Origin: an uncultured Vicinamibacterales bacterium
Lineage (GTDB): Bacteria > Acidobacteriota > Vicinamibacteria > Vicinamibacterales > JAKQTR01
NCBI GenBank assembly: GCA_964481395.1
Contig: CAYZYG010000014.1
Location: forward strand, 217-64,216
Direction of reading: 5' to 3'
Length of the DNA stretch: 64,000 nucleotides
Shown: piece after piece, positions 1,660 through 64,000 of the stretch
Layout: every line of letters begins with the position of its first letter
Numbering within the stretch: the first letter of the stretch is position 1
Translations under genes and position numbers: made by a program
Notes under the pieces: generated by a model
Databases searched by the model: none
What the model was told of the DNA's origin: nothing
What the model saw: only the letters and a program-made list of their open reading frames with translations

Positions 1660-3078
1660 TCAGGATGCGGTTCCTGGTCCCTGGGCCCCGGCCCCCGGTC
1701 CCTGTGCTCCCAGCCACGCCCTGAGTTCCGCGAGCGCCTGGCGGACCGCGTCGGGACTCGTCGACTGGGGCGTGCGCTTCGCGCCGACCGACGCGCGCGC
1801 GGTGATCGTCCATCCGGCGTCCTCACCGAAGGCCGGGGCGAACCGCGCCCACTCCTGGGGAGTCAGGTGGCTGAAGTCGCGCCCTGTCGCCGCCAGTTCC
1901 CGGACCATGGCGCCGACCGTCGCGTGCGCCTCGCGGAACGGCACGCCGCGCGCCACCAGGTAGTCCGCCACATCGGTCGCGAGCAGCAGCCCCGATGCCG
2001 CCGCCGCGGCACGATCGGCGGCGAAGCGAAGCCCGGCGACCACCGACGTTGTCGCGGCGAGCGACCCGGCCAGCGTCGCCTCGGCGTCGAACGCGGCTTC
2101 CTTGTCTTCCTGGAGGTCGCGGTTGTAGCCGCTCGGCAGTCCCTTCATCGTCGTCAGCCATCCGGCCAGAGCGCCGACGACGCGCCCGGTCTTGCCGCGA
2201 ACCAGTTCGAGGGGATCCGGGTTCTTCTTCTGGGGCATGAGGCTGCTGCCCGTGGCGAAGCGATCGGGCAGGTCGAAGTAGCCGAACTCCTCGCCGGTGA
2301 AGAACACCAGATCCTCGGCCAGCCGGCTCAGGTGCACCATCGTCAGCGCGGACGCGTGGAGGAAGCTCGACACGAAGTCGCGGTCCGAGGAGGCGTCGAG
2401 GCTGTTGACCACGACGCGGGAGAACCCCAGCTCGGCGGCCAGCGCCGTCGTGTCGACGGCGTAGTTCGTTCCGGCGATGGCTCCCGACCCGAGCGGCATG
2501 GCGTCGGCATCGGCCGAAGCCGTCTCGAGCCTGGCGACATCGCGTCGCAGCGCGGCCGCGTGGGCGAGGAAGTAGTGAGCGGCGAGGACCGGCTGCGCGC
2601 GTCGCACGTGCGTGTACGCCGGCATGACCGCCTCCCCGCAGGACGAGGCCTGATCGGCGAGCGCCGACACCAGCCGGCGAACGAGGTCGCGCAGCAGTGG
2701 AATGCGCCGCCGCAGGAAGAGCCGCAGGTCGAGCGACACCTGTTCGTTGCGCGACCGGCCTGTGTGGAGGCGTTTGCCCGCCTCCCCGATCCGCTCCACG
2801 AGCCGTCGTTCGACGAAGGCATGGATGTCCTCGTCCGGACCCGTGACGAATCCCGGATCGCGCCGTCCCTCTTCGAGGATTGCCTGCAGGCCGCTGATGA
2901 TCGCGTCTGCGTCGTCTGTCGAGATCGCCCCGGCCCGCGCGAGCGCGCGCGCCCACGCGAGGCTGCCCGTCACGTCGTCCTCGAAGAGACGCCGATCGAA
3001 CGGCAGGGAAACGCCGAAGCCGAACACGTCCGGATCCGGATCCCCATCGAACCGGCCCGACCAGAGATGCGTGGTCAT
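1660..3078 (-). CDS. argH: argininosuccinate lyase
   Basis: These are the C-terminal 472 codons of the 1660..4140 ORF, starting MTTHLWSGRFDG. The lyase-1 signature GSSLMPQKKNP is present. The ATG (3076-3078) overlaps the argG TGA (3078-3080) as ATGA. Confidence 0.93.
   Translation of the reverse strand: MTTHLWSGRFDGDPDPDVFGFGVSLPFDRRLFEDDVTGSLAWARALARAGAISTDDADAIISGLQAILEEGRRDPGFVTGPDEDIHAFVERRLVERIGEAGKRLHTGRSRNEQVSLDLRLFLRRRIPLLRDLVRRLVSALADQASSCGEAVMPAYTHVRRAQPVLAAHYFLAHAAALRRDVARLETASADADAMPLGSGAIAGTNYAVDTTALAAELGFSRVVVNSLDASSDRDFVSSFLHASALTMVHLSRLAEDLVFFTGEEFGYFDLPDRFATGSSLMPQKKNPDPLELVRGKTGRVVGALAGWLTTMKGLPSGYNRDLQEDKEAAFDAEATLAGSLAATTSVVAGLRFAADRAAAAASGLLLATDVADYLVARGVPFREAHATVGAMVRELAATGRDFSHLTPQEWARFAPAFGEDAGWTITARASVGAKRTPQSTSPDAVRQALAELRAWLGAQGPGAGAQGPGTAS
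1669..1703 (-). repeat. heptamer array, GGGGACC-type, 5 degenerate units
   Basis: Plus strand reads ggttcct ggtccct gggcccc ggccccc ggtccct. It lies inside the last codons of argH and encodes the tail GAQGPGAGAQGPG. Confidence 0.8.
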
Positions 3079-4178
3079 CAGAAGACTCCGTGCGGTGCCG
3101 GCACGCCGTCCGGAACGGCCGTCCGACCGTCCAGCGCGAACGGCGACCGCCGCGAACGGACCCGGCAGCTGCCCTGGAATACCGCGAGGCGGATCGTGCC
3201 GGTGACTCGCGGCTCGACGTCGGCGACCAGCGCGTCGATGGCGCTCCGGGTCGGCGAGAACCACGCTCCGCGATCCACGAGATCGGCGTAGCGGATGGCG
3301 AGGTCGCGGGTGAGTTGTTCGAGGTCCGCCGAAACGACGAGGCGCTGGAGTTCCCGGTGTGCGGCGAGCAGCACGACAGCGGCAGGCGCCTCGCCGATGA
3401 CCCGGGTCTTCAGGCCAGAGACCTCTGTCGTCGACGTGTCGAGGCGGCCGACGCCGTGGTCGCCCGCAATCGTCGTGATGCTGTCGATCAGCTCGAGTAG
3501 GCCCATGGACACGCCGTTCACCCCGATGGGCACCCCGCGGCTGAATTCGATGTCGAGCGTGGCCGGATGCGCGGGCCACCGATCCGGGTCTGTCGTCTGC
3601 GAGAACAGACCGCCTGGCAGTTCGCCCCAGGGATCCGACAGGCCATCCAGATGCACGGTTCGGCCCCACAGACTGGCGTCGACCCCTGAACGGCGCGGCC
3701 CGGATGCGGCGCCGGCGCGTATCACGGCGTCCTGAGTCACGGCTGTCGGCGGCGGCGCCACGATCCGGATGTCCGGGGCGACGGCTCTGACGGACCGCTC
3801 GAGACGCAGGCGGTCGTCGCCCTGGTCGCGGCACCCGTGGGCGACAGCCGAGGCGCCCTCGATTCGCGCGATCTCGGCGAGTCGGCTGGCGATGAGCGGA
3901 CGGCTGAGCGCGGTGGCGTGCGGATCGCCGCCCTCGCGCACGGAGCCCGCCTGCAGCGCGGGCAGGACGAACGAGGACGCGAAATCCTGGCGCGCGTCCA
4001 GCACGTGCGCGTTGACGGCACCTGCGGACAGGGCGCGTTCGCGAACGGCGTTGAGATCGCCCCCCTGCCCGACGTCGACCGTGAGGGTGATGACATCCGC
4101 CCCGAAGGTGGCGGCGAGCCACGGCACCGCCGCCGTGCACCGGTCTCCGCCCGAGTACGCCAGAACGATCCGTTCCAT
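3078..4178 (-). CDS. argG: argininosuccinate synthase-like protein (short, divergent)
   Basis: MERIVLAYSGG..., HG...G.D..R.E and GHGVGRLD are collinear with ArgG. The gene sits between argR and argH and is translationally coupled to argH. It is only 366 aa, and several canonical motifs are altered (see findings). Confidence 0.75.
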   Translation of the reverse strand: MERIVLAYSGGDRCTAAVPWLAATFGADVITLTVDVGQGGDLNAVRERALSAGAVNAHVLDARQDFASSFVLPALQAGSVREGGDPHATALSRPLIASRLAEIARIEGASAVAHGCRDQGDDRLRLERSVRAVAPDIRIVAPPPTAVTQDAVIRAGAASGPRRSGVDASLWGRTVHLDGLSDPWGELPGGLFSQTTDPDRWPAHPATLDIEFSRGVPIGVNGVSMGLLELIDSITTIAGDHGVGRLDTSTTEVSGLKTRVIGEAPAAVVLLAAHRELQRLVVSADLEQLTRDLAIRYADLVDRGAWFSPTRSAIDALVADVEPRVTGTIRLAVFQGSCRVRSRRSPFALDGRTAVPDGVPAPHGVF

Positions 4179-4186
4179 GAACTGGG

Positions 4187-4764: not shown

Positions 4765-5768
<1,004 letters not shown>

Positions 5769-18560: not shown

Positions 18561-18591
18561 AGTCGGCGATGGGACTGGGGACATCCACAAC

Positions 18592-18619
18592 CGGCCCCCG
18601 ATCCCCGGTCCCCGGCCCC
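18592..18619 (-). repeat. heptamer array, GGGGACC/GGGGATC-type, 4 units
   Basis: ggccccc gatcccc ggtcccc ggcccca, starting 19 nt downstream of the stop of the 18638..19942 gene. Confidence 0.85.
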
Positions 18620-18637
18620 AGTCAAGATTCATCGCAT

Positions 18638-20072: not shown

Positions 20073-22469
20073 ATGGACGAAATGGCCGCGATCCTGTTCG
20101 CGCTTGGGCTGACGGTCGCCGCGGTGACGCTGGCCGTCGTACTGCCCATCGCCTCGTTTGTCGGGATGCGGCGGGCGAGAGCGGCGGCGCAGGCGCTCGA
20201 GCAGCGGATCGGTGCGCTCGAGTCAGCCGTGCGGACGCTCGAGCGGACGTGGTTGTCGGATATGCGGACGGCGGACGGCAGCACCGCCGCACCGCAGCCC
20301 GCCGAGGTACGAGCGGAAGCCGGCCGTGCCCCGGCAGCGCCGGGCCCAGCTCCGGTGCCCGGGGAGGAACCGCCGCCGCCCCAGCCGCCCGTCACGGCGC
20401 TTCGGCCAGAACCGGTTCCGGATGGCGGCCCGACCCCTGAGCCCGCAGCCGTCGCGCCGGAAACTGTCGGGTTGTCGACGGCCCACACCGTCGTCGCGCA
20501 GGAACCCGCCGATGCTGCTGGGATCGACCGGCAGACCGGCCATCCCGGCCCCAGCCGGCCGACCGAAACCATCGAGAGCCGGATCGGCGGGCGGGGCCTG
20601 CTGTACGTCGGCGCGGTCGCCCTCCTGTTCGGGGTGGCATTCTTCGTGAAGTACGCCTTCGACAACGAGTGGATCAACGAGACCGCCCGCGTGGGGCTCG
20701 GAAGCCTCACCGGGCTGGCGCTCGTCGCGCTGGGTTGGCGCCTCGATCGGCGTGGCTACGCGCAGTACGGCCAGATCCTGGCAGGGACCGGCTTCGTCGC
20801 GCTCTACATCTCCACGTTCGCGGCCATCTCGTTCTACGGGCTCCTCTCGCAGGGCGCGGCGTTCGGCCTGATGGTCGCGATCACGCTGGCCTCGGCGCTG
20901 ATGGCCGACCGCCTGCCCGCGTACGGGCTGGCGGTCGTCGCGGTGCTGGGCGGGTTCGCCACACCGTTCCTCGTCGGCGGGGGCGAAGACAGGCAGGTCA
21001 CGCTGCTGACCTACGACGCAATCCTCGCGGTCGGAACCGTCTGTCTGGCCGGCAGGCGGTCCTGGCCGTCGTTGAGCCTCTTCGCCTACGCTCTTTCCGC
21101 CCTGACGTTCATCGCCTGGGCCGACCGATACTACGACGCGTCGAAGTACGCCACGACTCAGGTGTTTCTGGTGGCGTTCTGCACGATCTTCCTCGCGGCC
21201 TGGTGGGTGTTGCGCAGGGGATCGCGTGCGGGCAAGACCGCGGCCGGATGGCTTGCGGGCACCGACGGTACGATCGAGCCCTTCCTCGCGACCGTCCCGA
21301 TCGTCTTCCACGTCGCGTCGCTGGTAAACCTCCAGTCGCATCCCCTGCCGCTCCTGGTCTACCTCCTGCTCTTCACGCTCGCAGGTGTCGTCGCGAGCAT
21401 CCGGCTCGATCGGGCGTGGCTGCGTCTCGTCGTGCTGCTGACGGCTGCGCCATTCGTCATCGGCTGGGTCGTCGAGCACCGCAGTCCGGGATGGGTGCCA
21501 GCCGCCACGGTGGCGGTTCTGGCGGTTTACGTGCTGCACCTGGCCGGGCAGTGGGAGGGACGCACGCGCAGACCCGACGATCGCCCGCCACGGGCCGACG
21601 TCGCGCTGTTCCATGCGAACGGATTGGCGCTCGCAGGAGGCGTCTACGCGCTGACGTGGGACTGGCCGCTGCCGTGGTCCGTGGGTCTCGCCCTCGTCCA
21701 GGCCGCCTGGCACGCCGCGCTCGCCTGGGCGACGCGCAGGTGGCGCCAGGAGGTGTCCCCGAATGCGCTCGCGCTGATGTTCGCGATGCTGGGCCTGGCC
21801 ATCGGCCTGCTCTGGGACGGCTGGCCCGCCATCGTCGCCTGGATGATCGAGGGCGGTGCCGTCGTCTGGGTCGGCCTGCGCACCCGTCAGGCCTGGCTCA
21901 GAGCCTGCGGCGTCACCGTGACGGCCTGGATGCTCCTGCTGGCCCTGTTCAACGACTTCTTCCTGACGCCGGCAGGATTCACGATGGTCTGGAACGCGCG
22001 CGTGGGCGCCGGGGCAGTACTCATCGCCGTGCTGTATTTCGCGGCCGCCGCGTACAGGCGCGCGGAGACGGCGCTGCCGGAAGAGGCGCCCGTCATGCGC
22101 GCGGCCTACCTCGTCGCGGCCAATGTCATGACGCTGCTCCTCGCCTCGACCGAGGTCAATTCGTACTGGCACGCTCGAGCGGGATCCGATGCCGCAGCCG
22201 ACCTGGCACTCCAGGCCTCGCTCTCGATTCTCTGGGTTGTCTACGGCACGGCTCTCATCGTCGCGGGCATCGTCCGTCGGTACCGGCCGGTGCGCTACCT
22301 CGCGATCGCGATCCTCTCTCTCACGATCGTCAAGGTCTTCCTGTCCGACCTGTCCCAGTTGGGCGGCATCTACCGAATCGCCGGCTTCCTGGGTCTGGGC
22401 GCGTTTCTGCTGGTGGGAGCGTGGCTGTATCAGAAGTACAAGGACATCATCGTGGGCGACAGGCGATAG
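20073..22469 (+). CDS. polytopic membrane protein, DUF2339-like
   Basis: Start at MDEMAAILFALGLTVAAV. Architecture: N-terminal TM helix, coiled-coil segment, Pro-rich linker, then many predicted TM helices. This matches DUF2339 architecture as I recall it. The ORF-track start at 19857 was not used. Confidence 0.7.
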   Translation: MDEMAAILFALGLTVAAVTLAVVLPIASFVGMRRARAAAQALEQRIGALESAVRTLERTWLSDMRTADGSTAAPQPAEVRAEAGRAPAAPGPAPVPGEEPPPPQPPVTALRPEPVPDGGPTPEPAAVAPETVGLSTAHTVVAQEPADAAGIDRQTGHPGPSRPTETIESRIGGRGLLYVGAVALLFGVAFFVKYAFDNEWINETARVGLGSLTGLALVALGWRLDRRGYAQYGQILAGTGFVALYISTFAAISFYGLLSQGAAFGLMVAITLASALMADRLPAYGLAVVAVLGGFATPFLVGGGEDRQVTLLTYDAILAVGTVCLAGRRSWPSLSLFAYALSALTFIAWADRYYDASKYATTQVFLVAFCTIFLAAWWVLRRGSRAGKTAAGWLAGTDGTIEPFLATVPIVFHVASLVNLQSHPLPLLVYLLLFTLAGVVASIRLDRAWLRLVVLLTAAPFVIGWVVEHRSPGWVPAATVAVLAVYVLHLAGQWEGRTRRPDDRPPRADVALFHANGLALAGGVYALTWDWPLPWSVGLALVQAAWHAALAWATRRWRQEVSPNALALMFAMLGLAIGLLWDGWPAIVAWMIEGGAVVWVGLRTRQAWLRACGVTVTAWMLLLALFNDFFLTPAGFTMVWNARVGAGAVLIAVLYFAAAAYRRAETALPEEAPVMRAAYLVAANVMTLLLASTEVNSYWHARAGSDAAADLALQASLSILWVVYGTALIVAGIVRRYRPVRYLAIAILSLTIVKVFLSDLSQLGGIYRIAGFLGLGAFLLVGAWLYQKYKDIIVGDRR

Positions 22470-22536
22470 GCGACAGGCGACAGGGGGAGAACGGGCGGCA
22501 GGCGATAGGCGACAGGCGACAGGCGACCGGCGTCAG
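22456..22536 (+). repeat. heptamer arrays, GCGACAG-type, 4 + 6 units
   Basis: gcgacag gcgatag gcgacag gcgacag, an 11-nt break, then gcggcag gcgatag gcgacag gcgacag gcgaccg gcgtcag. The arrays fill the gap between convergent stops and overlap both stop codons. Confidence 0.9.
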
Positions 22537-23666
22537 GGGCCGATGCCCTCGGGGTACTGCAGCGCCAGGCGCAACTCCTTGGCGAGGGTGTCGACGTTCG
22601 CGTTGTTCGCCCAGGCACCCTCGGTTTCGAAGCGGAGGTCTCCGATGCGGCGTCCCCAGGGTGCAATGACCCGCCCGATCGCACGGAAGTCCGTCCGCTC
22701 GGCGCGCTCCTGGTCGAGCTGCCGGACGACGTCAGGAGCCACGCGAAGGAAGGCCCGCAAGGCGGCTGACGACTTGATGCTGTACTTGCGGCCGTTCCAC
22801 GCGGTGCCGAACAAGGTCGCGATCTGCTTGAAGTAGTTCACGAAGAAGCGCCGGGCGTCGTCGCGGAACTCGGCGCCCCGCCGGCCGCTGCCGAAGGCGT
22901 CGGTCTGGAGCAGGCGCTTCAGCTCCTGCGCGAGCGGCGCCTGGGCCACGGCGCCGTGCCCGACACCGAGCAGTTTGATCATGCCCGAGAGCGGCGAGTC
23001 CTCGCGCTCGTTCAGCGCCCGGAGGATGTCGTGCGCGGCCGCCAGATTGTCGTCGCGGTAGAGCTGGCGGCCGGACAGGCTCACGAGATGCGACGAGTTC
23101 AGCCGCGTGTGCTTCGCGTTGATCGTCACGAACATCTGGACGATGTGGTCTTCGGGAAGCTGGTCGAAGATGACCGCCGGCACCGAGAACGCCTCGCTGC
23201 CGAAGCGATCGATGTCGGCGTGCATCGCGAGCAGGCGGTGCTGGCCGTCGATGGCGCGGAGGATGCCCTCCGTCTCGGGAACCTTCAAGGTGCCGAGGTT
23301 GGAGCCTTCCTCGACCGGCACGAACGACAGCCGCTCGTCGCACGAGATGATCACCGCGCCCGGGATCGATGGAAGATCCCGCGCCTGGCGGCACTGCTCG
23401 TAGTACTGCACGAGCTCGTCGATCTTCCGCCGGATGATCTGCCGCTGGTAGGCCTTCTCGTTGGCCCCAATGCGGCGTTCCAGCAGATCCCAGTTGACCT
23501 TCGAGACTGGAGTGGTCCGCTTCTTGCCACGGACCGCCGGGTGGTGCTGTTCCCCGTAGCTCAGCACCTCGAACCGCACCAGTTTGTCGATGTCTCGGGC
23601 CGTCAGGGAGGCCTGGTAGAACTGCACCCCGAACTGCTGCATCCGGATGGCTGAGACGTTGATCAT
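22533..23666 (-). CDS. DGQHR-domain protein (DndB-like, ParB/Srx-fold superfamily)
   Basis: 377 aa with the literal motif AIDGQHRLLAM, followed by FVTINAKHTRLNSSHL. It is monocistronic, lying between convergent and divergent neighbours. Confidence 0.8.
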   Translation of the reverse strand: MINVSAIRMQQFGVQFYQASLTARDIDKLVRFEVLSYGEQHHPAVRGKKRTTPVSKVNWDLLERRIGANEKAYQRQIIRRKIDELVQYYEQCRQARDLPSIPGAVIISCDERLSFVPVEEGSNLGTLKVPETEGILRAIDGQHRLLAMHADIDRFGSEAFSVPAVIFDQLPEDHIVQMFVTINAKHTRLNSSHLVSLSGRQLYRDDNLAAAHDILRALNEREDSPLSGMIKLLGVGHGAVAQAPLAQELKRLLQTDAFGSGRRGAEFRDDARRFFVNYFKQIATLFGTAWNGRKYSIKSSAALRAFLRVAPDVVRQLDQERAERTDFRAIGRVIAPWGRRIGDLRFETEGAWANNANVDTLAKELRLALQYPEGIGP

Positions 23667-23842: not shown

Positions 23843-26644
<2,802 letters not shown>

Positions 26645-26709
26645 ACAGCAGGGGAAACCACGCCTACACAGACGAGTCGGGACGCGGCCTGCGGCTGGGG
26701 TCGCCAGGG

Positions 26710-28050: not shown

Positions 28051-28235
28051 CCTTTCCGCTCCGGTCGCCTGCCGCGCCCCAGATCATCGGTGATCCTCGG
28101 CAGACGGGCGCCCGCCCGTGTCTGCTGGAGGCCGGGGCCCTTCAGCCGCGGCTGGATCCCGGCGCAGATCACCGTCTCGGCGCGGTCAGCGCCGCGCCCT
28201 GCCCGCGAGGAATGGGAACTGGGGACTCGAAAACC

Positions 28236-28284
28236 GATCCCAGGTCCCCGACCCCTGTTCTTCCGTCCTCGGTCCCCGTCTTCT
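28236..28284 (-). repeat. heptamer array, degenerate GGGGACC-type, 7 units
   Basis: gatccca ggtcccc gacccct gttcttc cgtcctc ggtcccc gtcttct, immediately downstream of the penicillin acylase stop. Confidence 0.75.
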
Positions 28285-35924: not shown

Positions 35925-35951
35925 CTGGGGCCGGGGACCGGGGACCGGGGA
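35925..35951 (+). repeat. heptamer array, GGGGACC-type, four G4 runs
   Basis: ggggcc ggggacc ggggacc ggggacc. Confidence 0.9.
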
Positions 35952-36124
35952 CCAGTTCGGCCCACGATCGATCCGATCAGCGCCGGCTGACGGGCAGAGC
36001 TCACGCAGGAAGGCGGACCACCCACCCTCCGGGAGAAGCACCGCGCCCGGTGGCGCGGCGTCTCTGTTGTCTGCTACTGCTATAGACGGATCTGGGAGCG
36101 TTCTGGTTTAGCGCCTCGCCCCGC

Positions 36125-39133: not shown

Positions 39134-39135
39134 AG

Positions 39136-39170
39136 GACAGGGAACAGGCGACAGGCGACAGGCGACAGGG
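39136..39170 (+). repeat. heptamer array, GACAGGC-type, 5 units
   Basis: gacaggg aacaggc gacaggc gacaggc gacaggg. It starts 3 nt after the stop at 39133 and ends just before the terminator hairpin. Confidence 0.9.
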
Positions 39171-39187
39171 AAGGGCGGGGGGCAGGG

Positions 39188-39220
39188 GTCAGGGACGATG
39201 TGCCCTGACTCCTGTTTTTT
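39188..39220 (+). terminator. rho-independent terminator
   Basis: Stem GTCAGGG (39188-39194) pairs with CCCTGAC (39203-39209) around an 8-nt loop. TCCTG and TTTTTT (39215-39220) follow. Confidence 0.7.
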
Positions 39221-39262
<42 letters not shown>

Positions 39263-39266
39263 TTTC

Positions 39267-41138: not shown

Positions 41139-41208
41139 TCCTCTGGGATTGGGGATTGAACACTCGCGCGCGCGTCCGACAATGACTCCGGGAGTGATTC
41201 TCAGAACC

Positions 41209-41229
41209 GGTCCCCGATCCCCGGTCCCC
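41209..41229 (-). repeat. heptamer array, GGGGACC/GGGGATC-type, 3 units
   Basis: ggtcccc gatcccc ggtcccc, downstream of the MscS-cNMP gene. Confidence 0.85.
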
Positions 41230-41285
41230 GGCTTGCCTCGACGAAGCCGCGCCGCAACGCGTTTGGCGAAGTCGGGTCCCTGTTC

Positions 41286-42823: not shown

Positions 42824-42885
42824 GGATCCCGAATCCCGACCCCCGGTCTGAAGCACTGGTCCCCGGTCCCCGATCCCCGGTCCCT
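42824..42885 (-). repeat. heptamer arrays, GGGGACC/GGGGATC-type, 4 + 4 units
   Basis: ggatccc gaatccc gaccccc ggtctga, a 6-nt break, then ggtcccc ggtcccc gatcccc ggtccct, abutting the M48 stop. Confidence 0.9.
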
Positions 42886-42886
42886 G

Positions 42887-44062
42887 TTACTTCAGCAGTC
42901 CCTTCGTCTTGAACTCCGCGATGTCCGCCGGCGTGAGGTTGATGACGACCAGTGTCTTGACCGGGCCGCCCTTCGCGTTGCGTTCCGTGTCCACGCCGCG
43001 CGACGCGCCGGACCCTGTCACTTCAGCCGATTTCTTCTCCGACCCGCCGGGTTTCAGCAGGGACCCCAGGCCGAATCCTTTTTTCTTCGGTTCATCCTTC
43101 TTCCCGGCGTCCGACGAGCTTCCGCCCGACTTGCCCGACGATCCGCCCGCGAGGCCAGCCGTCCCTTCGGCCACCGTGGCGATTTCGGTGACCGGCTTGG
43201 CGGTGTACGTGATGGTCGCCTTGTAGCGGTCGGCCAGCACGGCCTCGCCGTTCATCTTCCCGTCCTTGATGATCTTGTCGATCTTCGAGAGGCGCTCGTC
43301 CATCTCGGGATGGGACGCGAACAGGCCCTGCTTCTCGGTCGCGGACTTATTCCGTTCGGTCAACCGCGTCAGGAAGTCCGGCAGACCGGACGGTGCGTAC
43401 CCGACCTTGTTGGCCAGCTCGAGCCCTTCCCGGTCGGACTCGAGTTCCTCCGACCGTCCGAACCCCGCCATGACCAGCTCGGTCGTCTTGTCGACGAGCT
43501 GCGAGAACAGCGCCGCGTTGTTCGAGAGGGTCTCCTCGGCGCCCATCTGGATCATCTTGCCCTTCTTGATGGCGCTGATCGTGTGCTTCTCCGTCACGTG
43601 GACGATCTCGTGAGCGAGCACGCCGGCCAGCTCGGCCTCACTCGACATCAGCCCGAGCGCGCCCCGCGTGATGTGCACGAAGCCTCCCGGCGCGGCGAAC
43701 GCGTTGACGCCGTCGGTGTCCAGCACGATGAACGTGAACGGGAGGTTCGGCCGCGTGCTGCGCTGCACGAGCACGGACCCGACCAGCGACACGTAGCGGT
43801 GCACGGCCTTGTCCTGGACCACGCCGTAACGGTTGCGGACCTTCTCGCTGACCGCCGCGCCCAGCTTGATCTCCTCGTCCTCCGAGATCTGCAGCTCCCG
43901 CAGCTGGTTCGCCCGCTTCAGAATCCCCCCGATCTGCGGGAGTCGGGAGTCGGGAGTCGGGAGTCGGGGCGTTGCCCCCCAGCCCGCATTCGGCGCTGCC
44001 ATCCCCGCGGCCACCGCGGCCGCCACCCAGATCACCATTCGGCGCATCGGCGTGTTCTCCAA
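42887..44062 (-). CDS. M48-family zinc metalloprotease, periplasmic
   Basis: Active-site motif LAHEIVHVTEKH (HExxH). Signal-like MRRMVIWVAAAVAAGMAA; the start may be the ATG at complement 44047. A Gly/Ser/Lys-rich C-terminal region is present. Confidence 0.85.
   Translation of the reverse strand: MENTPMRRMVIWVAAAVAAGMAAPNAGWGATPRLPTPDSRLPQIGGILKRANQLRELQISEDEEIKLGAAVSEKVRNRYGVVQDKAVHRYVSLVGSVLVQRSTRPNLPFTFIVLDTDGVNAFAAPGGFVHITRGALGLMSSEAELAGVLAHEIVHVTEKHTISAIKKGKMIQMGAEETLSNNAALFSQLVDKTTELVMAGFGRSEELESDREGLELANKVGYAPSGLPDFLTRLTERNKSATEKQGLFASHPEMDERLSKIDKIIKDGKMNGEAVLADRYKATITYTAKPVTEIATVAEGTAGLAGGSSGKSGGSSSDAGKKDEPKKKGFGLGSLLKPGGSEKKSAEVTGSGASRGVDTERNAKGGPVKTLVVINLTPADIAEFKTKGLLK
43938..43965 (-). 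repeat. heptamer array, GGGAGTC-type, 4 perfect units, inside the M48 coding sequence
   Basis: gggagtc x4. It encodes TPRLPTPDSRLP just after the predicted signal peptide. Confidence 0.95.
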
Positions 44063-46162: not shown

Positions 46163-46231
46163 GAGGACGCCCGCACCGACCGGGGTAGCGGTGAGGCCGG
46201 CGACGTCGCGCGTGGAGCGCGACGTCGAGTC

Positions 46232-46259
46232 GAGTCCCGACGCCCGACTCCCGATTCCC
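46232..46259 (+). repeat. heptamer array, GACTCCC-type, 4 units
   Basis: gagtccc gacgccc gactccc gattccc, in the divergent region between the cyclase and ornithine cyclodeaminase genes. Confidence 0.8.
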
Positions 46260-46293
46260 GGTGATGCCCCGCCCCTCGCGCTACAATGCCCCG

Positions 46294-48851: not shown

Positions 48852-48865
48852 CGGCTATCATGGTC

Positions 48866-48886
48866 GGGAATCGGGAGTCGGGAGTC
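48866..48886 (+). repeat. heptamer array, GGGAGTC-type, 3 units
   Basis: gggaatc gggagtc gggagtc, 15 nt after the M23 peptidase stop. Confidence 0.85.
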
Positions 48887-48912
48887 GGAGGCCTGGGGGC
48901 GGAGTAGGAGAC

Positions 48913-49821: not shown

Positions 49822-49858
49822 GAAAGTAGATAGTAGACAGTAGATAGTAGATAGTAGG
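49817..49858 (+). repeat. heptamer array, TAGTAGA/CAGTAGA-type, 6 units
   Basis: aatagga aagtaga tagtaga cagtaga tagtaga tagtagg. It overlaps the ctaB stop. Confidence 0.9.
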
Positions 49859-49864
49859 GTTGGT

Positions 49865-49885
49865 GTGCCGGCTGGCCGCCGGCAC
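49865..49885 (+). terminator. GC hairpin downstream of ctaB (possible terminator, no clean T-tract)
   Basis: Perfect 8-bp stem GTGCCGGC (49865-49872) pairs with GCCGGCAC (49878-49885) around a 5-nt loop. CTCATCTTCTC follows. Confidence 0.4.
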
Positions 49886-49931
49886 CTCATCTTCTCGTGC
49901 AGACACAGTCGCGCGGTCAGCGCGTCGCCTT

Positions 49932-49966
49932 TTCCTACTCTCTACTGTCTACTATCTACGGTCTAC
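49932..49966 (-). repeat. heptamer array, same family as 49817..49858 in inverted orientation, 5 units
   Basis: tcctact ctctact gtctact atctacg gtctact. Confidence 0.9.
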
Positions 49967-49978
49967 TATGTGAAGCTC

Positions 49979-50395: not shown

Positions 50396-50398
50396 GCA

Positions 50399-50426
50399 GG
50401 GACCAGGGATCGGGGACCGGGGATCG
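50399..50426 (+). repeat. heptamer array, GGGACCG/GGGATCG-type, 4 units
   Basis: gggacca gggatcg gggaccg gggatcg, starting 4 nt after the DUF420 stop. Confidence 0.9.
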
Positions 50427-50538
50427 GGTGTGGATGTTCCCAGTCCCCATTCGATGTCGCGGCAGGGCGCGGTCAGCCTGCCGCGCCGAAGCCCGATAGG
50501 GCGGAGGCGGGCCGAACGCGCCGAGGGGCGAGGCTGCG

Positions 50539-51351
50539 ATGAGTGGACGTCGAGCGCGGCTGGTGATGGCGGCGGTGGCGTACTTGGGTGCCGCGCAGGC
50601 CGCGCCGCGCGCTCAACTCCCGGGAGCCGTGCTTGCGACCCAGATCGTCATCACGTCTCCCGAAACGGTCGTGGAACTGGACCACCGCGAGCTTCCGGGC
50701 ATTCCCACGCGGCTGGCGTGGGCGCCGGATCACCGGTACTTGTACCTGCGCGTCAGCCGGTTCGACCGGTGGGCCAACGAGACGGCGTCGCACGCGATCG
50801 TGGACGTGGAAGCGCGAACCGTGTCTCCCACGACCGGCGAACCGCCCTGGGCTTCGCGATACTGGTTCTGGAAGTCGGCGCCCGCCTCACCGGGCGATCC
50901 CACGTGGAAGTTGTCGTTCGACGCGCGCGAGGAACAGGTGCGCACAACCAACGTGCCGCGGGGCGGCGACATCGCCGGCTTCATGAGCGACCCCGGCGCG
51001 GGATACGACGAACTGGCGCAGAAGGCCATCCTGGCCAACCAAAAGGTCCGATTCGAGCGGCTGACCCTGAACGGGCGCGTCATCGACGAGACCGTGAACA
51101 CCTCACTCACGCCGGGCCGGCGCTTCGGGTGGTCGCCGCCCGCGCGAGGCCTCATCGCGGTCGCCGACCGCAACGGCCATCTTGTTCTGATCGATCGCGA
51201 CGGCAAGACGCAGACGGCCGAGGGCACGAAGCAGGTGCTCCTCCCGGCATGGAGCGAGGACGGAACGCGCATCGCGTTCGTCGAGCGGGTCAGGAACGAG
51301 CGCTATGCGTTGCGGCTGGTGAGGGTGGGACAGGACGGGAATAGGAGATAG
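50539..51351 (+). CDS. secreted hypothetical protein
   Basis: 270 aa. Signal-like MSGRRARLVMAAVAYLGAAQAAP and a C-terminal propeller-blade-like PAWSEDGTRIAFV. Confidence 0.55.
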   Translation: MSGRRARLVMAAVAYLGAAQAAPRAQLPGAVLATQIVITSPETVVELDHRELPGIPTRLAWAPDHRYLYLRVSRFDRWANETASHAIVDVEARTVSPTTGEPPWASRYWFWKSAPASPGDPTWKLSFDAREEQVRTTNVPRGGDIAGFMSDPGAGYDELAQKAILANQKVRFERLTLNGRVIDETVNTSLTPGRRFGWSPPARGLIAVADRNGHLVLIDRDGKTQTAEGTKQVLLPAWSEDGTRIAFVERVRNERYALRLVRVGQDGNRR

Positions 51352-51376
51352 GAGATAGGAGATAGTAGACAGTAGC
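51342..51376 (+). repeat. heptamer array, ATAGGAG/ATAGTAG-type, 5 units
   Basis: ataggag x3, atagtag, acagtag. It overlaps the stop of the 50539..51351 gene. Confidence 0.9.
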
Positions 51377-51457: not shown

Positions 51458-51504
51458 AAACGAAAACCGCCCCGGCCGCGCCACGCTGGCGCGACCGGGG
51501 CGGC
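51458..51504 (-). terminator. rho-independent terminator of the Oar-like receptor gene
   Basis: A 17-bp stem with one mismatch spans 51468-51484 and 51488-51504, with a 3-nt loop. On the minus strand TTTTCGTTTC follows. Confidence 0.7.
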
Positions 51505-51515
51505 TGACTGAACCG

Positions 51516-51543
51516 GTCCCCGATCCCCGGTCCCCGGTCCCTG
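51516..51543 (-). repeat. heptamer array, GGGGACC/GGGGATC-type, 4 units
   Basis: ggtcccc gatcccc ggtcccc ggtccct, between the receptor stop (51547) and its terminator hairpin (51504). Confidence 0.9.
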
Positions 51544-51546
51544 GTC

Positions 51547-57339: not shown

Positions 57340-57374
57340 GCCTACTGTCTACTATCTACTGTCTACTATCTACT
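57340..57374. repeat. heptamer array, GTCTACT/ATCTACT-type, 5 units
   Basis: gcctact gtctact atctact gtctact atctact, in a divergent intergenic region. Confidence 0.9.
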
Positions 57375-57416
57375 GTCCCGTGCCCGTACGCTAACATAAA
57401 CCCAGGAATCCCGATC

Positions 57417-62684: not shown

Positions 62685-62747
62685 GTCGGCGACCGGGCCC
62701 TACCGCATCGGGTACGGTAGGGCTGGCTCGCCGAGCCCGCCGGACAC
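62685..62747. repeat. triple-hairpin GC-rich miniature repeat, copy 2 (inverted)
   Basis: ggtcggcgaccgggccctaccgcatcgggtacggtagggctggctcgccgagcccgccggacac. Confidence 0.85.
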
Positions 62748-62803
62748 GCTGAAGGCTGGTAAGATCAGGTGTGAGCCCTGCCCGTCAGCGCCGGAGTGAC
62801 AAC

Positions 62804-64000
62804 ATGCGACGAACGGTCCTCGCGACTGTGGTGGCCTGTGGCCTGGCGACCGCGTCATCGGTTCTCTTCGCTCTCGGCACGTCCAGCGACGATCATGGAT
62901 GGGGACTGCGGACATCCAGAACTGGTCCCCGGTCCCAGGTCCCCGGTCCCCGTCCTCAGCCGCCCTTCCCTGCTGCCTTCGGGTTTCAGGGGACGGCCCC
63001 GCAGGAGTCCTCCGCCCAGGTCTTCCGCACGGGCGTCGAAATCGTGCGCCTGGATGTGCGGGTGACCGACGCCGACGGCGTCCCGATCCGAGACCTGCGC
63101 GCCGACGAGATCCAGGTCCTCGAAAGCGGCGACGAGCGCCCGATCGTCCTGTTCCAGCACGTCATCCAGCCGATCGGCACCTACGCGGACGTCGCCCGCC
63201 GGACCATCGCATCGGAGGTCTCGACGAACCAGGGCGCGCCGCGCGGCAACGTCTACGCGCTGGTCTTCGACCAGGGGCACATCACGGCCGGCAACGAACA
63301 GCGGGCCAGGATGGCCGCCGAGCGGTTCCTGCGCACGCGCGTGAAACCGGGCGACCGGGTCGCCCTGTACGCGGTCCCCGGCCCGGGCCCGCAGCTCGAG
63401 TTCACCGCTGACGCAACGCGCGCCGCAAAGGAACTCGTGGCAGTGCGCGGCACGCGACAGGACGAGCAGACCGGCGCGCTCGGGTCCATGCGCGTCTACG
63501 ACGCCTACGAAATCACGCGCGGCAACCAGGACGTGGTCACCCGCTACGTCAACCGCCTGGCGGACAATCCGACCTCGTCCGACCAGCCTGCGACGGCGAA
63601 CCGTCAGACCGTGCGGGTCGAGACGGAGGACCCGTCGGTGACCCGCCGCCTCGTGCAGGAGGACGCGCGGACGATTGTCAGCCGCGCTGACGGGGATGCG
63701 CGGCGGTTCCTGCAGGACCTGACGGCGATCGTCCGCACGTTGCGCGAGGTGGACGGCCGCAAGTCGGTCATCCTGTTCTCCGAAGGCTTCGCCATCGACC
63801 ACGTCCGCCAGGAGCTCGAGGACGTTGCGGCTGCGGCCGCGCAGTCGTACTGCCTGGTGTACGCGCTCGATCTCAACTCCCGCGCCGTCGATCTCAGCCA
63901 GGCCACGCCGCGCGATTCGGCGCTGGGAACCGAGATTCTGAGCCGCCTCGAGCCGCTCGGCAGTCTCGTCGCCGAGACCGACGGCGAGCTGTTCATCGAC
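62804..64000 (+). CDS. VWA-domain protein, VWFA-related Acidobacterial type (3-prime end runs off the window)
   Basis: ATG at 62804, MRRTVLATVVACGLATASSVLFALG, then FRTGVEIVRLDVRVTDADGVPIRDLRADEIQVLESG and VILFSEGF. The frame stays open to the window end. Not in the ORF track because of truncation. Confidence 0.8.
   Translation, partial: MRRTVLATVVACGLATASSVLFALGTSSDDHGWGLRTSRTGPRSQVPGPRPQPPFPAAFGFQGTAPQESSAQVFRTGVEIVRLDVRVTDADGVPIRDLRADEIQVLESGDERPIVLFQHVIQPIGTYADVARRTIASEVSTNQGAPRGNVYALVFDQGHITAGNEQRARMAAERFLRTRVKPGDRVALYAVPGPGPQLEFTADATRAAKELVAVRGTRQDEQTGALGSMRVYDAYEITRGNQDVVTRYVNRLADNPTSSDQPATANRQTVRVETEDPSVTRRLVQEDARTIVSRADGDARRFLQDLTAIVRTLREVDGRKSVILFSEGFAIDHVRQELEDVAAAAAQSYCLVYALDLNSRAVDLSQATPRDSALGTEILSRLEPLGSLVAETDGELFID
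62924..62951. repeat. heptamer array, GGTCCCC-type, 4 units, inside the predicted N-terminal linker of the VWA gene
   Basis: ggtcccc ggtccca ggtcccc ggtcccc. It encodes TGPRSQVPGPRP. Confidence 0.9.

What the first reader, a model, noticed from the sequence alone, without database searches (positions are those of the whole stretch)
1669..62951. At least twenty tandem arrays with a strict 7-nt period, in five related unit families
I found arrays of 3-10 heptamers at 1669, 18592, 22456, 26615, 28236, 31857, 35925, 39136, 39221, 41209, 42824, 43938, 46232, 48866, 49817, 49932, 50399, 51342, 51516, 57340 and 62924.

The units fall into five families: GGGGACC/GGGGATC, GCGACAG, GACAGTA/GATAGTA (also ATAGGAG), GGGAGTC and CTGTCTT. 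Read on the sense strand of the upstream gene, most can be written GAC-NNNN (GACCGGG, GACAGGC, GACAGTA, GACAGAA). That suggests a common origin or a common recognition core.

This amounts to roughly one array per two genes, far more than chance in unique sequence. They are not CRISPR arrays (no spacers) and not REP hairpins (the units are not palindromic). I do not know of a described element class with these properties.
Basis: seen in the sequence. Interest (0 to 1): 0.7.

Follow-up and report, generated by a model that had tools for sequence, protein, structure and literature searches.

The report
Heptamer repeat arrays at gene ends
The 7-base tandem arrays are real and far beyond chance, but they belong to a class already described in Xanthomonas, Nostoc, Geobacter and cyanobacteria (intergenic heptanucleotide repeats), seen here in a soil Acidobacteriota lineage, where they sit just after stop codons and often form hairpin arms.

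Summary
**Observation:** confirmed. The window, from an uncultured Vicinamibacterales genome (about 69% GC), holds about 24 period-7 arrays. A strict detector finds 15 at period 7, none at periods 5, 6 or 8-11, and 0.00 expected by simulation.

**Anatomy:**
- The arrays are almost all intergenic and abut or overlap stop codons.
- The G/purine-rich strand is the sense strand of the gene just ended (14/14).
- Arrays next to start codons have the opposite polarity.
- Several are hairpin arms. Two inverted pairs enclose terminator-like stem-loops (fold z about -6).
- Four GGGGAYC arrays carry the same loop and the same short inverted arm.
- Copies share non-repeat segments, so these are dispersed element families.
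- Strains about 99.6% identical differ by exactly one 7-nt unit.

**Wider pattern:** the same rules hold in Vicinamibacteria-like and Blastocatellia genomes, with genome-specific units at orthologous positions.

**Interpretation:** partly supported. Heptanucleotide repeats are documented, including the same unit (four GGGACCG repeats, 49 copies) in Geobacter metallireducens. "Not hairpins" is also partly wrong.

**Best reading:** slippage-prone, REP-like 3'-UTR repeats that act, if at all, through structure. New member of a known kind; function unproven.

The parts
1669..1710 (-). Degenerate G-rich array, about 5-6 units of GGGRMCC on the minus strand. It lies inside the last ~17 codons of argH (1660-3078, minus strand) and encodes the tail GAQGPGAGAQGPGTAS.
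18591..18623 (-). (GGGGNCC) x4.9, 14 nt after the TAG stop of gene 18638-19963 (minus strand). G4-capable.
18568..18587 (-). Loop plus short inverted arm (TGGATGTCCCCAGTCCCATC) that pairs with array 18591.
22455..22537 (+). (GGCGACA/GGCGATA) x12 in two blocks, bridging two convergent stop codons. The TAG stop of the plus-strand gene is a variant unit. Predicted unstructured (z +3.3).
26615..26648 (+). (GACAGTA) x~4.7. The last ~10 codons and the TAG stop of gene 23897-26644 lie inside the array.
28236..28290 (-). Degenerate GGGGAYC-type array overlapping the 3' end of the penicillin-amidase gene 28284-30827 (minus strand).
28205..28232 (-). Approximate position of the short inverted arm (GAGTCCCCAGTTCCCAT) that pairs with array 28236.
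31857..31875 (-). (ATCAGGG) x2.7, the distal part of the composite element that starts at 31950.
31889..31950 (-). (GACAGGC) x8.4 starting at the TAG stop of TonB-receptor gene 31949-34189 (minus strand). Shares non-repeat segments with 39136 and 22455. Predicted unstructured (z +2.9).
35927..35953 (+). (GGGGACC) x3.9 between convergent genes. Short-read contigs from several samples break here, or join a different flank (L113).
39136..39169 (+). (GACAGGC) x4.9, 2 nt after the stop of gene 38630-39133. It is the 5' arm of a giant hairpin.
39177..39220 (+). Terminator-like stem-loop (18 pairs) followed by T6, enclosed by the two arrays.
39219..39262 (-). (GACAGAA) x6.3 on the minus strand (CTGTCTT on plus), 4 nt after the TAG stop of gene 39267-41138 (minus strand). 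It is the 3' arm of the giant hairpin (region 39125-39275: MFE -79.6, z -6.2).
41207..41231 (-). (GGGGAYC) x3.6, 54 nt after the stop of gene 41286-42728 (minus strand). It sits next to a REP-like palindrome, AATCACTCCCGGAGTCATT.
42824..42884 (-). Two GGGGAYC/GGGRTYC arrays (42858-42884 x3.9; 42824-42850 degenerate) starting 2 nt after the TAA stop of the M48 peptidase gene. This intergenic region (IGR) is only 10-30 nt long, with no array, in relatives L004, L006, L007 and L016.
43937..43968 (+). (GGGAGTC) x4.6 lying inside the M48 peptidase ORF (minus strand). It encodes the linker TPRLPTPDSRLP after a signal-peptide-like N-terminus and is absent from orthologues.
46231..46260 (-). Degenerate (GGGAGTC) x4.3 (the plus strand reads GACTCCC). 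It ends 3 nt before the ATG (46264) of the OCD/mu-crystallin gene, and is C-rich on the sense strand.
48863..48888 (+). (GGGAATC/GGGAGTC) x3.7 between the M23 peptidase stop and the ctaB start. Six strain contigs carry exactly one extra unit (+7 nt).
49825..49857 (+). (GATAGTA/GACAGTA) x4.7, 3 nt after the TAG stop of ctaB. It is the 5' arm of a giant hairpin.
49865..49885 (+). GC-rich stem-loop GTGCCGGC-TGGCC-GCCGGCAC enclosed by the inverted arrays.
49935..49969 (-). Inverted array (the plus strand reads CTACTRT) x~5, ending 9 nt before the DUF420 start at 49979. It is the 3' arm (region 49815-49985: MFE -78.4, z -6.5).
50397..50450 (+). (GGGGAYC) x4.3 starting 1 nt after the DUF420 stop, followed by the loop and short inverted arm TGGATGTTCCCAGTCCCCAT (50431-50450). 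Strain SNPs fall at 50410, 50414 and 50429.
51341..51375 (+). (ATAGGAG) x3 followed by GATAGTA/GACAGTA units. It overlaps the last codons and the TAG stop of gene 50563-51351.
51465..51505 (-). Canonical intrinsic-terminator-like hairpin (19 pairs) with a T-run, directly downstream of array 51513 on the minus strand.
51513..51546 (-). (GGGGAYC) x4.9 starting immediately after the TAA stop of TonB-type receptor gene 51547-54525 (minus strand), i.e. between the stop codon and the terminator. Short-read contigs end here.
57342..57377 (-). (GACAGTA/GATAGTA) x~5 (the plus strand reads CTACTGT), 39 nt upstream of the start of gene 57417-58130. Nine strain contigs begin inside it.
62899..62952 (-). 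(GGGGACC) x4.1 (62924-62952) plus the loop and short inverted arm TGGATGTCCGCAGTCCCCAT (62899-18). It lies 91 nt upstream of the plus-strand gene at 63044. This IGR is replaced by other palindromic repeats in strain contigs L104 and L105.

Best explanation
These are heptanucleotide long simple-sequence repeats, the class also called STRR-like in cyanobacteria, in an uncultured Vicinamibacterales (Acidobacteriota) genome.

**Shown**
- They are short, dispersed, REP-like intergenic elements built from tandem 7-nt units.
- They sit at the ends of transcription units, typically starting at or within a few bases of a stop codon and upstream of a GC-rich terminator-type stem-loop.
- They have a fixed polarity. 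The G/purine-rich strand is the sense strand after a stop codon, and the C/pyrimidine-rich strand is the sense strand before a start codon. On either strand, an element therefore reads R-array, centre, Y-array.
- Many are arms of hairpins.
- Copies share non-repeat loops and tails, so they spread by copying.
- They change by gain or loss of whole units and by homogenisation, so unit sequences turn over while period and position persist.

**Inferred**
- They are transcribed as 3'-UTR or inter-cistronic RNA.
- They act, if at all, through structure rather than as sequence-specific protein sites. Candidate structures are register-tolerant long hairpins, G-quadruplexes for the GGGGAYC family, or unstructured spacers between stop codon and terminator. 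Candidate roles resemble those of REP/BIME elements: 3'-end protection, help with termination, or insulation.
- The 7-nt period most likely reflects a lineage-specific slippage bias of replication (Mrazek's hypothesis).
- The TAG-rich stop codons arise because arrays invade gene 3' ends and a CAG/GAG-type triplet in a purine-rich unit mutates to TAG.
For: **Period and excess**
- 15 arrays at period 7 against 0.00 simulated, and none at neighbouring periods.

**Position and polarity in the window**
- Distance to the stop codon is -30 to +14 nt for most arrays. The G-rich/GAY strand is the sense strand in 14/14 stop-adjacent arrays (binomial p = 1e-4).
- Start-adjacent arrays (46231, 49935, 57342, 62924) are C/Y-rich on the sense strand.

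**Phylum sample**
- The sample is 80 ctaB loci holding 121 arrays. Only 7 arrays lie inside genes, and 41 start within -10 to +5 nt of a stop.
- Sense-strand G>C holds in 48 arrays against 11. Counting one vote per distinct unit outside the window gives 29 against 7, p = 3e-4.

**Hairpins**
- Fold z is -6.2 for 39125-39275 and -6.5 for 49815-49985, each enclosing a terminator-like stem-loop.
- 54 of 119 arrays have an inverted partner within 130 nt, against 2-3 in controls.
- In Pyrinomonadaceae, the IGR after ctaB reads stop-(U)n-loop-(U')n-AAGGAG-ATG with genome-specific units. Other genomes have a plain long hairpin at the same place.

**Dispersal**
- Four GGGGAYC copies share the loop and arm GGTTGTGGATGTCCCCAGTCCCCAT.
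- GACAGGC copies share non-periodic segments.
- Short-read contigs from many samples break exactly at arrays.

**Slippage**
- The only indel in 7.6 kb among strains about 99.6% identical is one 7-nt unit.
- 6 of about 32 substitution sites lie in two arrays, 49825 and 50397. All arrays together make up roughly 2.6% of that stretch (my estimate from array lengths).

**Turnover**
- An array follows the DUF420 stop in at least 8 genomes, each with a different unit.

**Stop codons**
- TAG is the stop in 23/37 array-adjacent genes against 211/734 others (odds ratio 4.1, p = 6e-5).

**Literature**
- Xanthomonas and Nostoc arrays follow the same rules.
- Geobacter has the same unit.
Against: - No expression, 3'-end or structure data exist for this organism, so transcription and any RNA-level role are inferred.
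- About half of the window's arrays have no inverted partner and are predicted to be unusually unstructured (z +2.9 and +3.3). A single 'hairpin' function therefore cannot cover all of them.
- No transposase or RAYT gene is present in the window, no target-site duplications were seen, and the copying mechanism is unknown.
- Why the period is 7 is unexplained. A plain slippage model would favour shorter units.
- Slippage inserts units rather than overwriting flanks, so the exact abutment to stop codons needs an extra assumption: insertion at or into gene ends, followed by stop-codon capture.
- The phylum-wide statistics rest on my own GC3-based gene calls and on loci that all surround one gene. 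Orthologous positions are therefore partly pseudo-replicated.
Confidence: 0.55

Rival explanations
1. The arrays are multimerised binding sites for a lineage-specific, sequence-specific RNA- or DNA-binding protein with a 7-nt register (for example a cold-shock-domain, S1 or CsrA-like protein, or a regulator).
For: - Most window units share G-N-N-G-A-Y-N.
- Orientation relative to transcription is strict.
- Arrays are enriched in Vicinamibacteria-like loci (11.0 per 100 kb) and Blastocatellia (9.1 per 100 kb), against 0 in 154 kb of other Acidobacteriota. A lineage-specific factor would explain this.
- The typical length is 4-5 units.
- Published proposals of this kind exist for TAACTGA repeats and for Geobacter heptamer sites.
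Against: - Orthologous arrays in related genomes have unrelated units (ATTGCCG, GGTAAAT, ATGAGTG, GCTGACG, GGGATTC and others). No core is conserved, and one genome carries several units.
- At the same IGR some genomes have a non-repetitive hairpin instead.
- Flanking genes are ordinary housekeeping genes with no functional theme.
Confidence: 0.15
2. The arrays are purely neutral by-products of replication slippage, or selfish junk, with no function at all. They accumulate wherever selection tolerates them.
For: - Most window arrays are absent from orthologous IGRs of relatives at 70-76% nucleotide identity, where the IGR is only 10-40 nt.
- Strains differ by a unit and by whole-IGR replacement.
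- Units turn over freely.
- Arrays are excluded from coding sequence as expected, because 7 is not a multiple of 3.
- Arrays are absent from the tightly packed arg operon at 3-9.7 kb.
Against: - Strand polarity is 14/14 in the window and 29 against 7 distinct units elsewhere.
- Arrays abut stop codons exactly. Slippage alone cannot produce this.
- Inverted-arm pairing is far above controls.
- An array persists after the DUF420 and ctaB stops across family-level divergence.
- Part of this rival is already contained in the best explanation. The difference is only whether the structures are used.
Confidence: 0.22
3. The arrays are G-quadruplex regulatory elements. The G-rich arrays exist to form G4 structures in the non-template DNA strand or in the 3'-UTR RNA, pausing RNA polymerase or blocking exonucleases.
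For: - 10 of 14 G4 motifs in the window lie in arrays, and there are 14 motifs against 6.7 expected.
- GGGGAYC arrays have about 4 G-tracts and are always G-rich on the sense strand.
- G4 formation was shown in vitro for the analogous Xanthomonas and Nostoc repeats, which also prefer 4 units.
Against: - The GACAGTA, GATAGTA, GACAGAA, GACAGGC and ATAGGAG arrays cannot form G4, yet obey the same position, polarity and length rules.
- Units in relatives are often A/T-rich.
- Several GGGGAYC arrays carry a complementary C-rich arm that would compete with G4 formation.
- Rehm et al. found no regulatory effect.
Confidence: 0.06
4. The arrays are phase-variation (contingency) loci. Changes in unit number switch genes on and off.
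For: - A 7-nt copy-number polymorphism exists between strains.
- One array (43937-43968) lies inside the M48 peptidase ORF, where a one-unit change would shift the reading frame.
Against: - Nearly all arrays lie downstream of stop codons of housekeeping genes.
- The polymorphic array at 48863 lies between genes and changes no reading frame.
Confidence: 0.02

Closest known systems
G-rich heptameric SSRs of Xanthomonas (GGGAATC) and Nostoc PCC 7120 (GGGGA(C/T)T), Rehm et al. 2015, PMC4692102
   Same: - Tandem 7-nt units with nearly the same motif (GGGGAYC here).
- About 90% intergenic and close to the upstream ORF (mean 28 nt).
[quoted passage not shown]
- Frequent inverted pairs.
- About 4 units typical, and G4-capable.
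- Length and sequence vary between close relatives.
- Function unresolved.
   Different: - A different phylum.
- Several co-existing non-G4 unit families (GACAGTA, GACAGGC, GACAGAA, ATAGGAG) obey the same rules here.
- Arrays start at, or overlap, the stop codon, with TAG enrichment.
- Short inverted arms with a conserved loop.
Geobacter metallireducens 'four tandem heptanucleotide repeats' elements (GGGACCG, 49 copies; also (MTYCTGA)5 sites), Aklujkar et al. 2009, PMC2700814
   Same: - An identical unit (GGGACCG is a rotation of GGGGACC).
- Four copies per element.
- Multicopy and dispersed.
- Both intergenic and intragenic sites.
   Different: - Annotated there as putative regulatory RNA elements or regulator sites, without analysis of position or strand.
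- No relation to stop codons was reported in the passages I read.
- I did not examine their alignment.
Cyanobacterial STRR (short tandemly repeated repetitive) heptanucleotides and Mrazek's heptanucleotide LSSR class
   Same: - Tandem heptamers in several families per genome.
- Mostly intergenic.
- Sporadic phylogenetic distribution.
- Slippage is the proposed origin. The original STRR description rests on my own knowledge (Mazel et al. 1990).
   Different: - A high-GC soil Acidobacteriota genome.
- Units are unrelated to STRR1-3.
- Hairpin-arm organisation and stop-codon abutment are documented here.
REP / BIME / REPIN elements of Proteobacteria
   Same: - Short dispersed intergenic repeats just after stop codons.
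- Often inverted doublets forming long hairpins next to terminators.
- Mosaic with other small palindromes. The window also holds ATTCCCGC-N4-GCGGGAAT and AATCACTCCCGGAGTGATT palindromes.
- Known REP roles are mRNA 3'-end stabilisation and termination (established knowledge).
   Different: - The arms are tandem heptamers rather than a fixed 20-40-nt imperfect palindrome.
- Sequence is not conserved between genomes.
- No RAYT gene was seen, and there is no conserved GTAG head.
TAACTGA direct repeats of marine Beggiatoaceae, cyanobacteria and Bacteroidetes, MacGregor 2015, PMC4679880
   Same: - Abundant intergenic heptamer direct repeats, 2-6 copies per set.
- Oriented relative to genes.
- Not linked to any gene function class.
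   Different: - A single unit shared across phyla.
- Placed just upstream of start codons, whereas here most arrays follow stop codons and units are genome-specific.

Membership tests
Heptanucleotide LSSR / STRR-type intergenic repeats | Head-to-tail tandem copies of a 7-nt unit, longer than chance allows | tested here: met
   15 strict arrays at period 7 against 0.00 simulated, and none at neighbouring periods.
Heptanucleotide LSSR / STRR-type intergenic repeats | Many dispersed copies, predominantly intergenic | tested here: met
   About 24 arrays in 64 kb; all but about 3 lie outside ORF bodies. Across 80 loci, 114 of 121 are intergenic. A genome-wide count is not possible from one window.
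Heptanucleotide LSSR / STRR-type intergenic repeats | Unit-number variation between close relatives (slippage behaviour) | tested here: met
   One +7-nt allele at 48863 in six strain contigs. It is the only indel in 7.6 kb.
Xanthomonas/Nostoc GGGNATC-type G4 repeats | Unit GGG(G/A)AYC-like, with at least 4 G-tracts | tested here: met
   Met for the GGGGAYC family only: 9 arrays, with G4 regex hits at 8 of them. Not met by the GACAG-type families.
Xanthomonas/Nostoc GGGNATC-type G4 repeats | [quoted passage not shown] | tested here: met
   compared with the rule stated.
Xanthomonas/Nostoc GGGNATC-type G4 repeats | Actual G-quadruplex formation | not testable with these tools
   Only the sequence motif could be checked.
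REP / REPIN | Each unit is a fixed imperfect palindrome of 20-40 nt, conserved across the genome | tested here: not met
   The arms are tandem heptamers. Single arrays are predicted unstructured, with z +2.9 and +3.3.
REP / REPIN | Inverted doublets forming long hairpins in intergenic regions after genes | tested here: met
   Pairs 39136/39219 and 49825/49935 fold with z about -6. 54 of 119 arrays phylum-wide have an inverted partner.
REP / REPIN | Cognate RAYT (Y1 transposase) gene in the genome | not testable with these tools
   None among the window's genes. The rest of the genome is not available.
Intrinsic terminator | GC-rich stem-loop immediately followed by a U-run | tested here: not met
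   The arrays themselves lack this. Separate terminator-like hairpins lie next to or between arrays, at 39177-39220 and 51465-51505.
CRISPR array | Repeats of 23-50 nt separated by unique spacers of similar length | tested here: not met
   Units are contiguous 7-mers with no spacers.
Phase-variation contingency SSR | Repeat located in a promoter or 5' coding region of a surface or virulence gene, so that unit changes switch expression | tested here: not met
   Most arrays follow stop codons of housekeeping genes. One possible exception lies inside the M48 peptidase ORF.
Curated RNA families (Rfam 15) | Match at the gathering threshold | tested here: not met
   The only hit in the window is a tRNA at 47304-47375.

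The most novel reading that the evidence does not exclude
In Vicinamibacteria and Blastocatellia the heptamer arrays may be a selected, lineage-wide gene-end device rather than junk. The stop codon would be followed by a register-tolerant 'zipper' arm, with free sequence but fixed 7-nt period and fixed G>C polarity. This arm would build adjustable hairpins or G4 structures around terminators. The device would be created or propagated by a dedicated, still unknown activity, such as a RAYT-like nuclease or a repeat-adding polymerase, that targets stop-codon-proximal DNA and supplies TAG stops.
Probability: 0.12. Interest if true: 0.7.

Novelty: new member of a known kind. Interest (0 to 1): 0.35.

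Why it matters
**Gap filled.** Heptanucleotide repeats have been noted in scattered bacterial genomes since 1990, and their function has not been established in the papers I read. This window shows that two classes of Acidobacteriota, a dominant and mostly uncultured soil phylum, carry them densely (about 10-25 per 100 kb). No paper in the searched library describes this.

**Rules that constrain explanations.** This window and its relatives give unusually clean rules:
- exact abutment to stop codons, with TAG enrichment;
- a transcription-linked polarity shared by G4-capable and non-G4 units;
- frequent hairpin-arm organisation;
- positional persistence with complete turnover of unit sequence.

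**Practical consequences.**
- The arrays fragment short-read assemblies, and may create chimeric joins, exactly at gene boundaries.
- They add array-encoded tails or linkers to proteins (ArgH, M48 peptidase).
- They could serve as strain-typing VNTR (variable-number tandem repeat) markers.

Tried and rejected
1. **'Frame-independent backstop' idea** (a unit containing a stop codon gives stops in all three frames). Rejected. 23 of 62 stop-adjacent arrays have a sense-strand stop in the unit, against 21.9 expected from shuffled units.
2. **Assembly artefact.** Rejected. The same arrays appear in independent contigs from many runs and in long-read MAGs.
3. **Coding repeats.** Rejected for all but about 3 arrays, using GC3-based ORF calls and Pfam.
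4. **Known RNA family.** None; the Rfam gathering scan gives only a tRNA.
5. **Universal purine-richness of the sense strand.** Holds in the window but only weakly across the phylum (44 against 18). G>C skew is the better rule.
6. **Metagenome scan for the conserved hairpin arm** GGATGTYCCCAGTCCCCAT. Unproductive. 11 of 12 hits are unrelated to the element: 8 share one high-GC sequence context that looks coding, and 3 are identical low-GC contigs. Only L103 is a true element copy.
7. **Target-site duplications** around the four GGGGAYC-plus-arm copies. None seen by eye.
8. **Literature on heptamer repeats in Acidobacteria or Vicinamibacter.** Nothing found. The STRR search was swamped by an unrelated acronym. 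Mrazek 2007 is not held and is cited only through other papers.
9. **First pattern for the second palindromic repeat.** It found nothing because I had mis-specified it. The corrected pattern found 3 copies.

Full report

Yes. Direct reading of all 21 listed positions shows tandem 7-nt units. TRF recovers 18 of them. It also finds further arrays at 31889-31950, 39173-39194 and 42858-42884. The runs at 1669, 28236 and 42824 are degenerate, with 3-5 units.

A strict detector of my own finds 15 arrays at period 7. It finds none at periods 5, 6 or 8-11 and one at period 12. One hundred Markov-1 simulations give 0.00 arrays at period 7.

The arrays are not artefacts. Independent short-read contigs from many sequencing runs carry the same arrays.

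**2. Source organism and gene content**

The window is about 69% GC. Its ctaB protein is most similar (84%) to an Acidobacteriota MAG, and further hits are Vicinamibacterales.

The genes are ordinary:
- an arg operon;
- TonB-type receptors with CarboxypepD_reg domains;
- sulfatase-TPR proteins;
- NamZ, M23 and M48 peptidases;
- ctaB and DUF420.

No transposase or RAYT gene is present.

**3. Anatomy in the window**

*Gene calls.* I used GC3-based gene calls, checked against Prodigal calls on identical Logan contigs.

*Position.* Nearly every array lies at a gene end. Most begin between 30 nt before and 14 nt after a stop codon. Several contain the stop codon itself:
- at 22455 the stop TAG is a variant unit, GCGATAG;
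- the same holds at 26615, 31889 and 51341.

*Arrays in coding sequence.* The array at 1669 encodes the last ~16 residues of ArgH, beyond the last Pfam domain. The array at 43937 lies inside the M48 peptidase ORF and encodes a TPRLPTPDSRLP linker after a signal-peptide-like N-terminus.

*Polarity.* In all 14 stop-adjacent cases the G-rich/GAY-reading strand is the sense strand of the gene that has just ended (p = 1e-4). Arrays next to start codons (46231, 49935, 57342, 62924) are C/pyrimidine-rich on the sense strand. On either strand, an element therefore reads R-array, centre, Y-array. The one exception is 22455, which keeps a single polarity between two convergent genes.

*Relation to terminators.* Arrays lie between the stop codon and a GC-rich stem-loop:
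- 51513 is followed by a canonical hairpin plus T-run at 51465-51505;
- 39136 is followed by the hairpin plus T6 at 39177-39220;
- 49825 is followed by GTGCCGGC-TGGCC-GCCGGCAC.

*No arrays inside the arg operon.* The tightly packed arg operon (3-9.7 kb) has no arrays.

**4. Hairpins**

- Two inverted array pairs fold into very long stems enclosing the terminator-like hairpins. Region 39125-39275 has MFE -79.6 and z -6.2. Region 49815-49985 has MFE -78.4 and z -6.5.
- Four GGGGAYC arrays (18591, 28236, 50397, 62924) are followed by the same loop and a two-unit inverted arm, GGTTGTGGAT-GTCCCCAGTCCCCAT.
- Other arrays have no partner and are predicted to be unusually unstructured: z +3.3 at 22455 and +2.9 at 31857.

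**5. Dispersed families, not isolated slippage events**

- The GGGGAYC copies share a non-repeat loop.
- The GACAGGC copies at 39136, 31889 and 22455 share non-periodic interruptions and a tail, GACAGGGAAnnGCGGGGGGCAGGGrTCAGGGA.
- Contigs from many samples start or stop inside arrays (43939, 51537, 35925-9, 39166-71, 57346). This is the expected behaviour of multi-copy sequence in de Bruijn assemblies.
- Contig L113 joins a different left flank exactly at array 35927. This is either a chimera or a rearrangement.

**6. Dynamics**

*Between strains.* Among strain contigs 99.5-99.9% identical to the window, the only indel in 7.6 kb is one extra unit (TCGGGAA) in array 48863. Six of about 32 substitution sites fall in two arrays, 49825 and 50397. 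All arrays together make up roughly 2.6% of that stretch by my estimate.

*Against relatives at 70-76% nucleotide identity.* Most window arrays are absent, and the orthologous IGRs are only 10-40 nt long. In L004-L007 and L016, ctaB and DUF420 even overlap (ATGA). The window and L003 instead have a ~150-nt insert at this junction: array-hairpin-inverted array in the window, and a single array after the stop in L003.

*Persistence with turnover.* An array follows the DUF420 stop in at least eight genomes and the ctaB stop in at least twelve, each with a different unit. Period and place persist while sequence turns over, as expected for concerted evolution of a satellite.

**7. Generality**

I analysed 80 ctaB-centred loci.

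| Group | Period-7 arrays per 100 kb |
|---|---|
| Window | 25 |
| Vicinamibacteria-like | 11.0 |
| Blastocatellia / Pyrinomonadaceae | 9.1 |
| Other Acidobacteriota (154 kb sampled) | 0 |
| Non-Acidobacteriota | 2.1 |

Further results across the 121 arrays:
- Seven arrays lie inside genes, 62 lie within 30 nt of a stop, and 41 start within -10 to +5 nt of one.
- Sense-strand G>C holds in 48 against 11. With one vote per distinct unit outside the window it is 29 against 7, p = 3e-4.
- 54 of 119 arrays have an inverted partner within 130 nt, against 2-3 in controls.
- In many Pyrinomonadaceae the ctaB-downstream IGR reads stop-(U)n-loop-(U')n-AAGGAG-ATG. Other genomes have a plain long hairpin at the same place. 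The hairpin therefore seems to be the conserved entity, with heptamer arms as one way of building it.
- Array-adjacent stop codons are TAG in 23/37 high-GC cases against 211/734 elsewhere (odds ratio 4.1, p = 6e-5).

*Caveat.* The gene calls are my own, and all loci surround one gene, so these counts are partly pseudo-replicated.

**8. What it most likely is and does**

*Shown.* A family of short, dispersed, transcription-oriented intergenic repeats built from tandem heptamers. They are located in the stop-to-terminator interval. They mutate by whole-unit indels and often form hairpin arms.

*Inferred.*
- They are transcribed in 3' UTRs.
- They behave like REP/BIME elements: selfish or tolerated, and possibly used as 3'-end structures, G4 structures or spacers.
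- The 7-nt period most likely reflects a replication-slippage bias (Mrazek's hypothesis).
- The TAG bias plausibly arises because arrays invade gene ends and a purine-rich unit mutates to TAG. The array-encoded C-terminal tails support this.

*Not established.* I could not establish the copying mechanism or any function.

**9. Comparison with known systems**

The class is known.
- Rehm et al. describe GGGAATC and GGGGA(C/T)T arrays in Xanthomonas and Nostoc. They report the same intergenic bias, the same proximity to the upstream ORF, the same strand rule, frequent inverted pairs, about 4 units, and in-vitro G4 formation. They found no function.
- Geobacter metallireducens carries 49 elements with four GGGACCG repeats, the very unit found here.
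- Heptanucleotides were reported as the commonest long-SSR class in most genomes examined.
- TAACTGA repeats are a start-codon-proximal analogue.

I found no report for Acidobacteria.

These points appear not to be in the papers I read:
- several non-G4 families obey the same rules as the G4-capable one;
- stop-codon capture and TAG enrichment;
- positional persistence with unit turnover;
- restriction to two acidobacterial classes.

**10. Verdict**

The arrays are a new member of a known kind. They are of moderate interest, because the rules are clean and the function of the whole class remains open.

Noticed in passing
window 18534-18553, 26727-26746, 28014-28033 (with ~40-nt flanks): A second dispersed repeat: a ~75-nt MITE/REP-like element with inverted ends GTCATTCC...GGAATGAC. 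It contains the palindrome ATTCCCGC-N4-GCGGGAAT and a second hairpin, GGATTCCGGGTTCCGCTACGCGGCCCCGGAAT. There are three copies against 0 expected, all in IGRs that also hold heptamer arrays.
   Followed up: partly
window ~41180-41200; L104/L105 last 130 nt (corresponding to the IGR after window 62609): A third small palindromic repeat, AATCACTCCCGGAGTGATT. It sits next to array 41207 in the window. It occurs twice in strain contigs L104 and L105, where it replaces the window's IGR sequence downstream of 62609. Whole IGRs therefore differ between strains about 99.5% identical.
   Followed up: partly
window 43937-43968 within ORF 42887-44046 (minus strand): A heptamer array lies inside the M48 peptidase gene, between a signal-peptide-like N-terminus and the catalytic domain. 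A one-unit change would shift the reading frame, so this is a possible on/off switch. The array is absent from orthologues in L004, L006, L007 and L016.
   Followed up: partly
window 1660-1710: ArgH (argininosuccinate lyase) carries a ~16-residue Gly/Pro/Ala-rich C-terminal tail encoded by a degenerate G-rich array, beyond the last Pfam domain.
   Followed up: partly
L113 positions ~2600-2660 versus window 35925: Logan contig L113 is 100% identical to the window from 35925 onward. To the left of the (GGGGACC) array it carries different genes (ATP synthase epsilon, PP2C-like, ABC-2 permease). This is either an assembly chimera through the repeat or a rearrangement at an array. By the same logic the window contig itself could be mis-joined at arrays.
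   Followed up: partly
window 9683-12664 (minus strand); TRF rows 10124-10567 and 11133-11933: A large ORF (about 990 aa, with an N-terminal PAN_4 domain) contains long tandem repeats of 210 nt (x2.1, 79% identity) and 423 nt (x1.9, 87% identity). Neighbouring genes encode cohesin-domain proteins.
   Followed up: no
window 22533-23666 (minus strand): A DndB-like (PF14072, DNA-sulfur-modification-associated) protein gene stands alone between housekeeping genes. Its stop codon is overlapped by the longest array, 22455-22537.
   Followed up: no
window 47304-47375 (minus strand): A single tRNA gene, the only Rfam gathering-level hit in the window.
   Followed up: no
L007 ~2390-2600; L016 11310-11410: In the relative L007, the IGR orthologous to window 41139-41285 holds a ~200-nt long inverted repeat (MITE-like) instead of heptamer arrays. 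In L016, an assembly gap (a run of N) begins right after the heptamer array that follows DUF420.
   Followed up: no
L004, L005, L006, L007, L016 at the ctaB/DUF420 junction, versus window 49819-49981: In several relatives the ctaB stop and the DUF420 start overlap (ATGA). The window and L003 instead have a ~150-nt insert at this junction. In the window it carries arrays and a hairpin and supplies a new TAG stop.
   Followed up: yes
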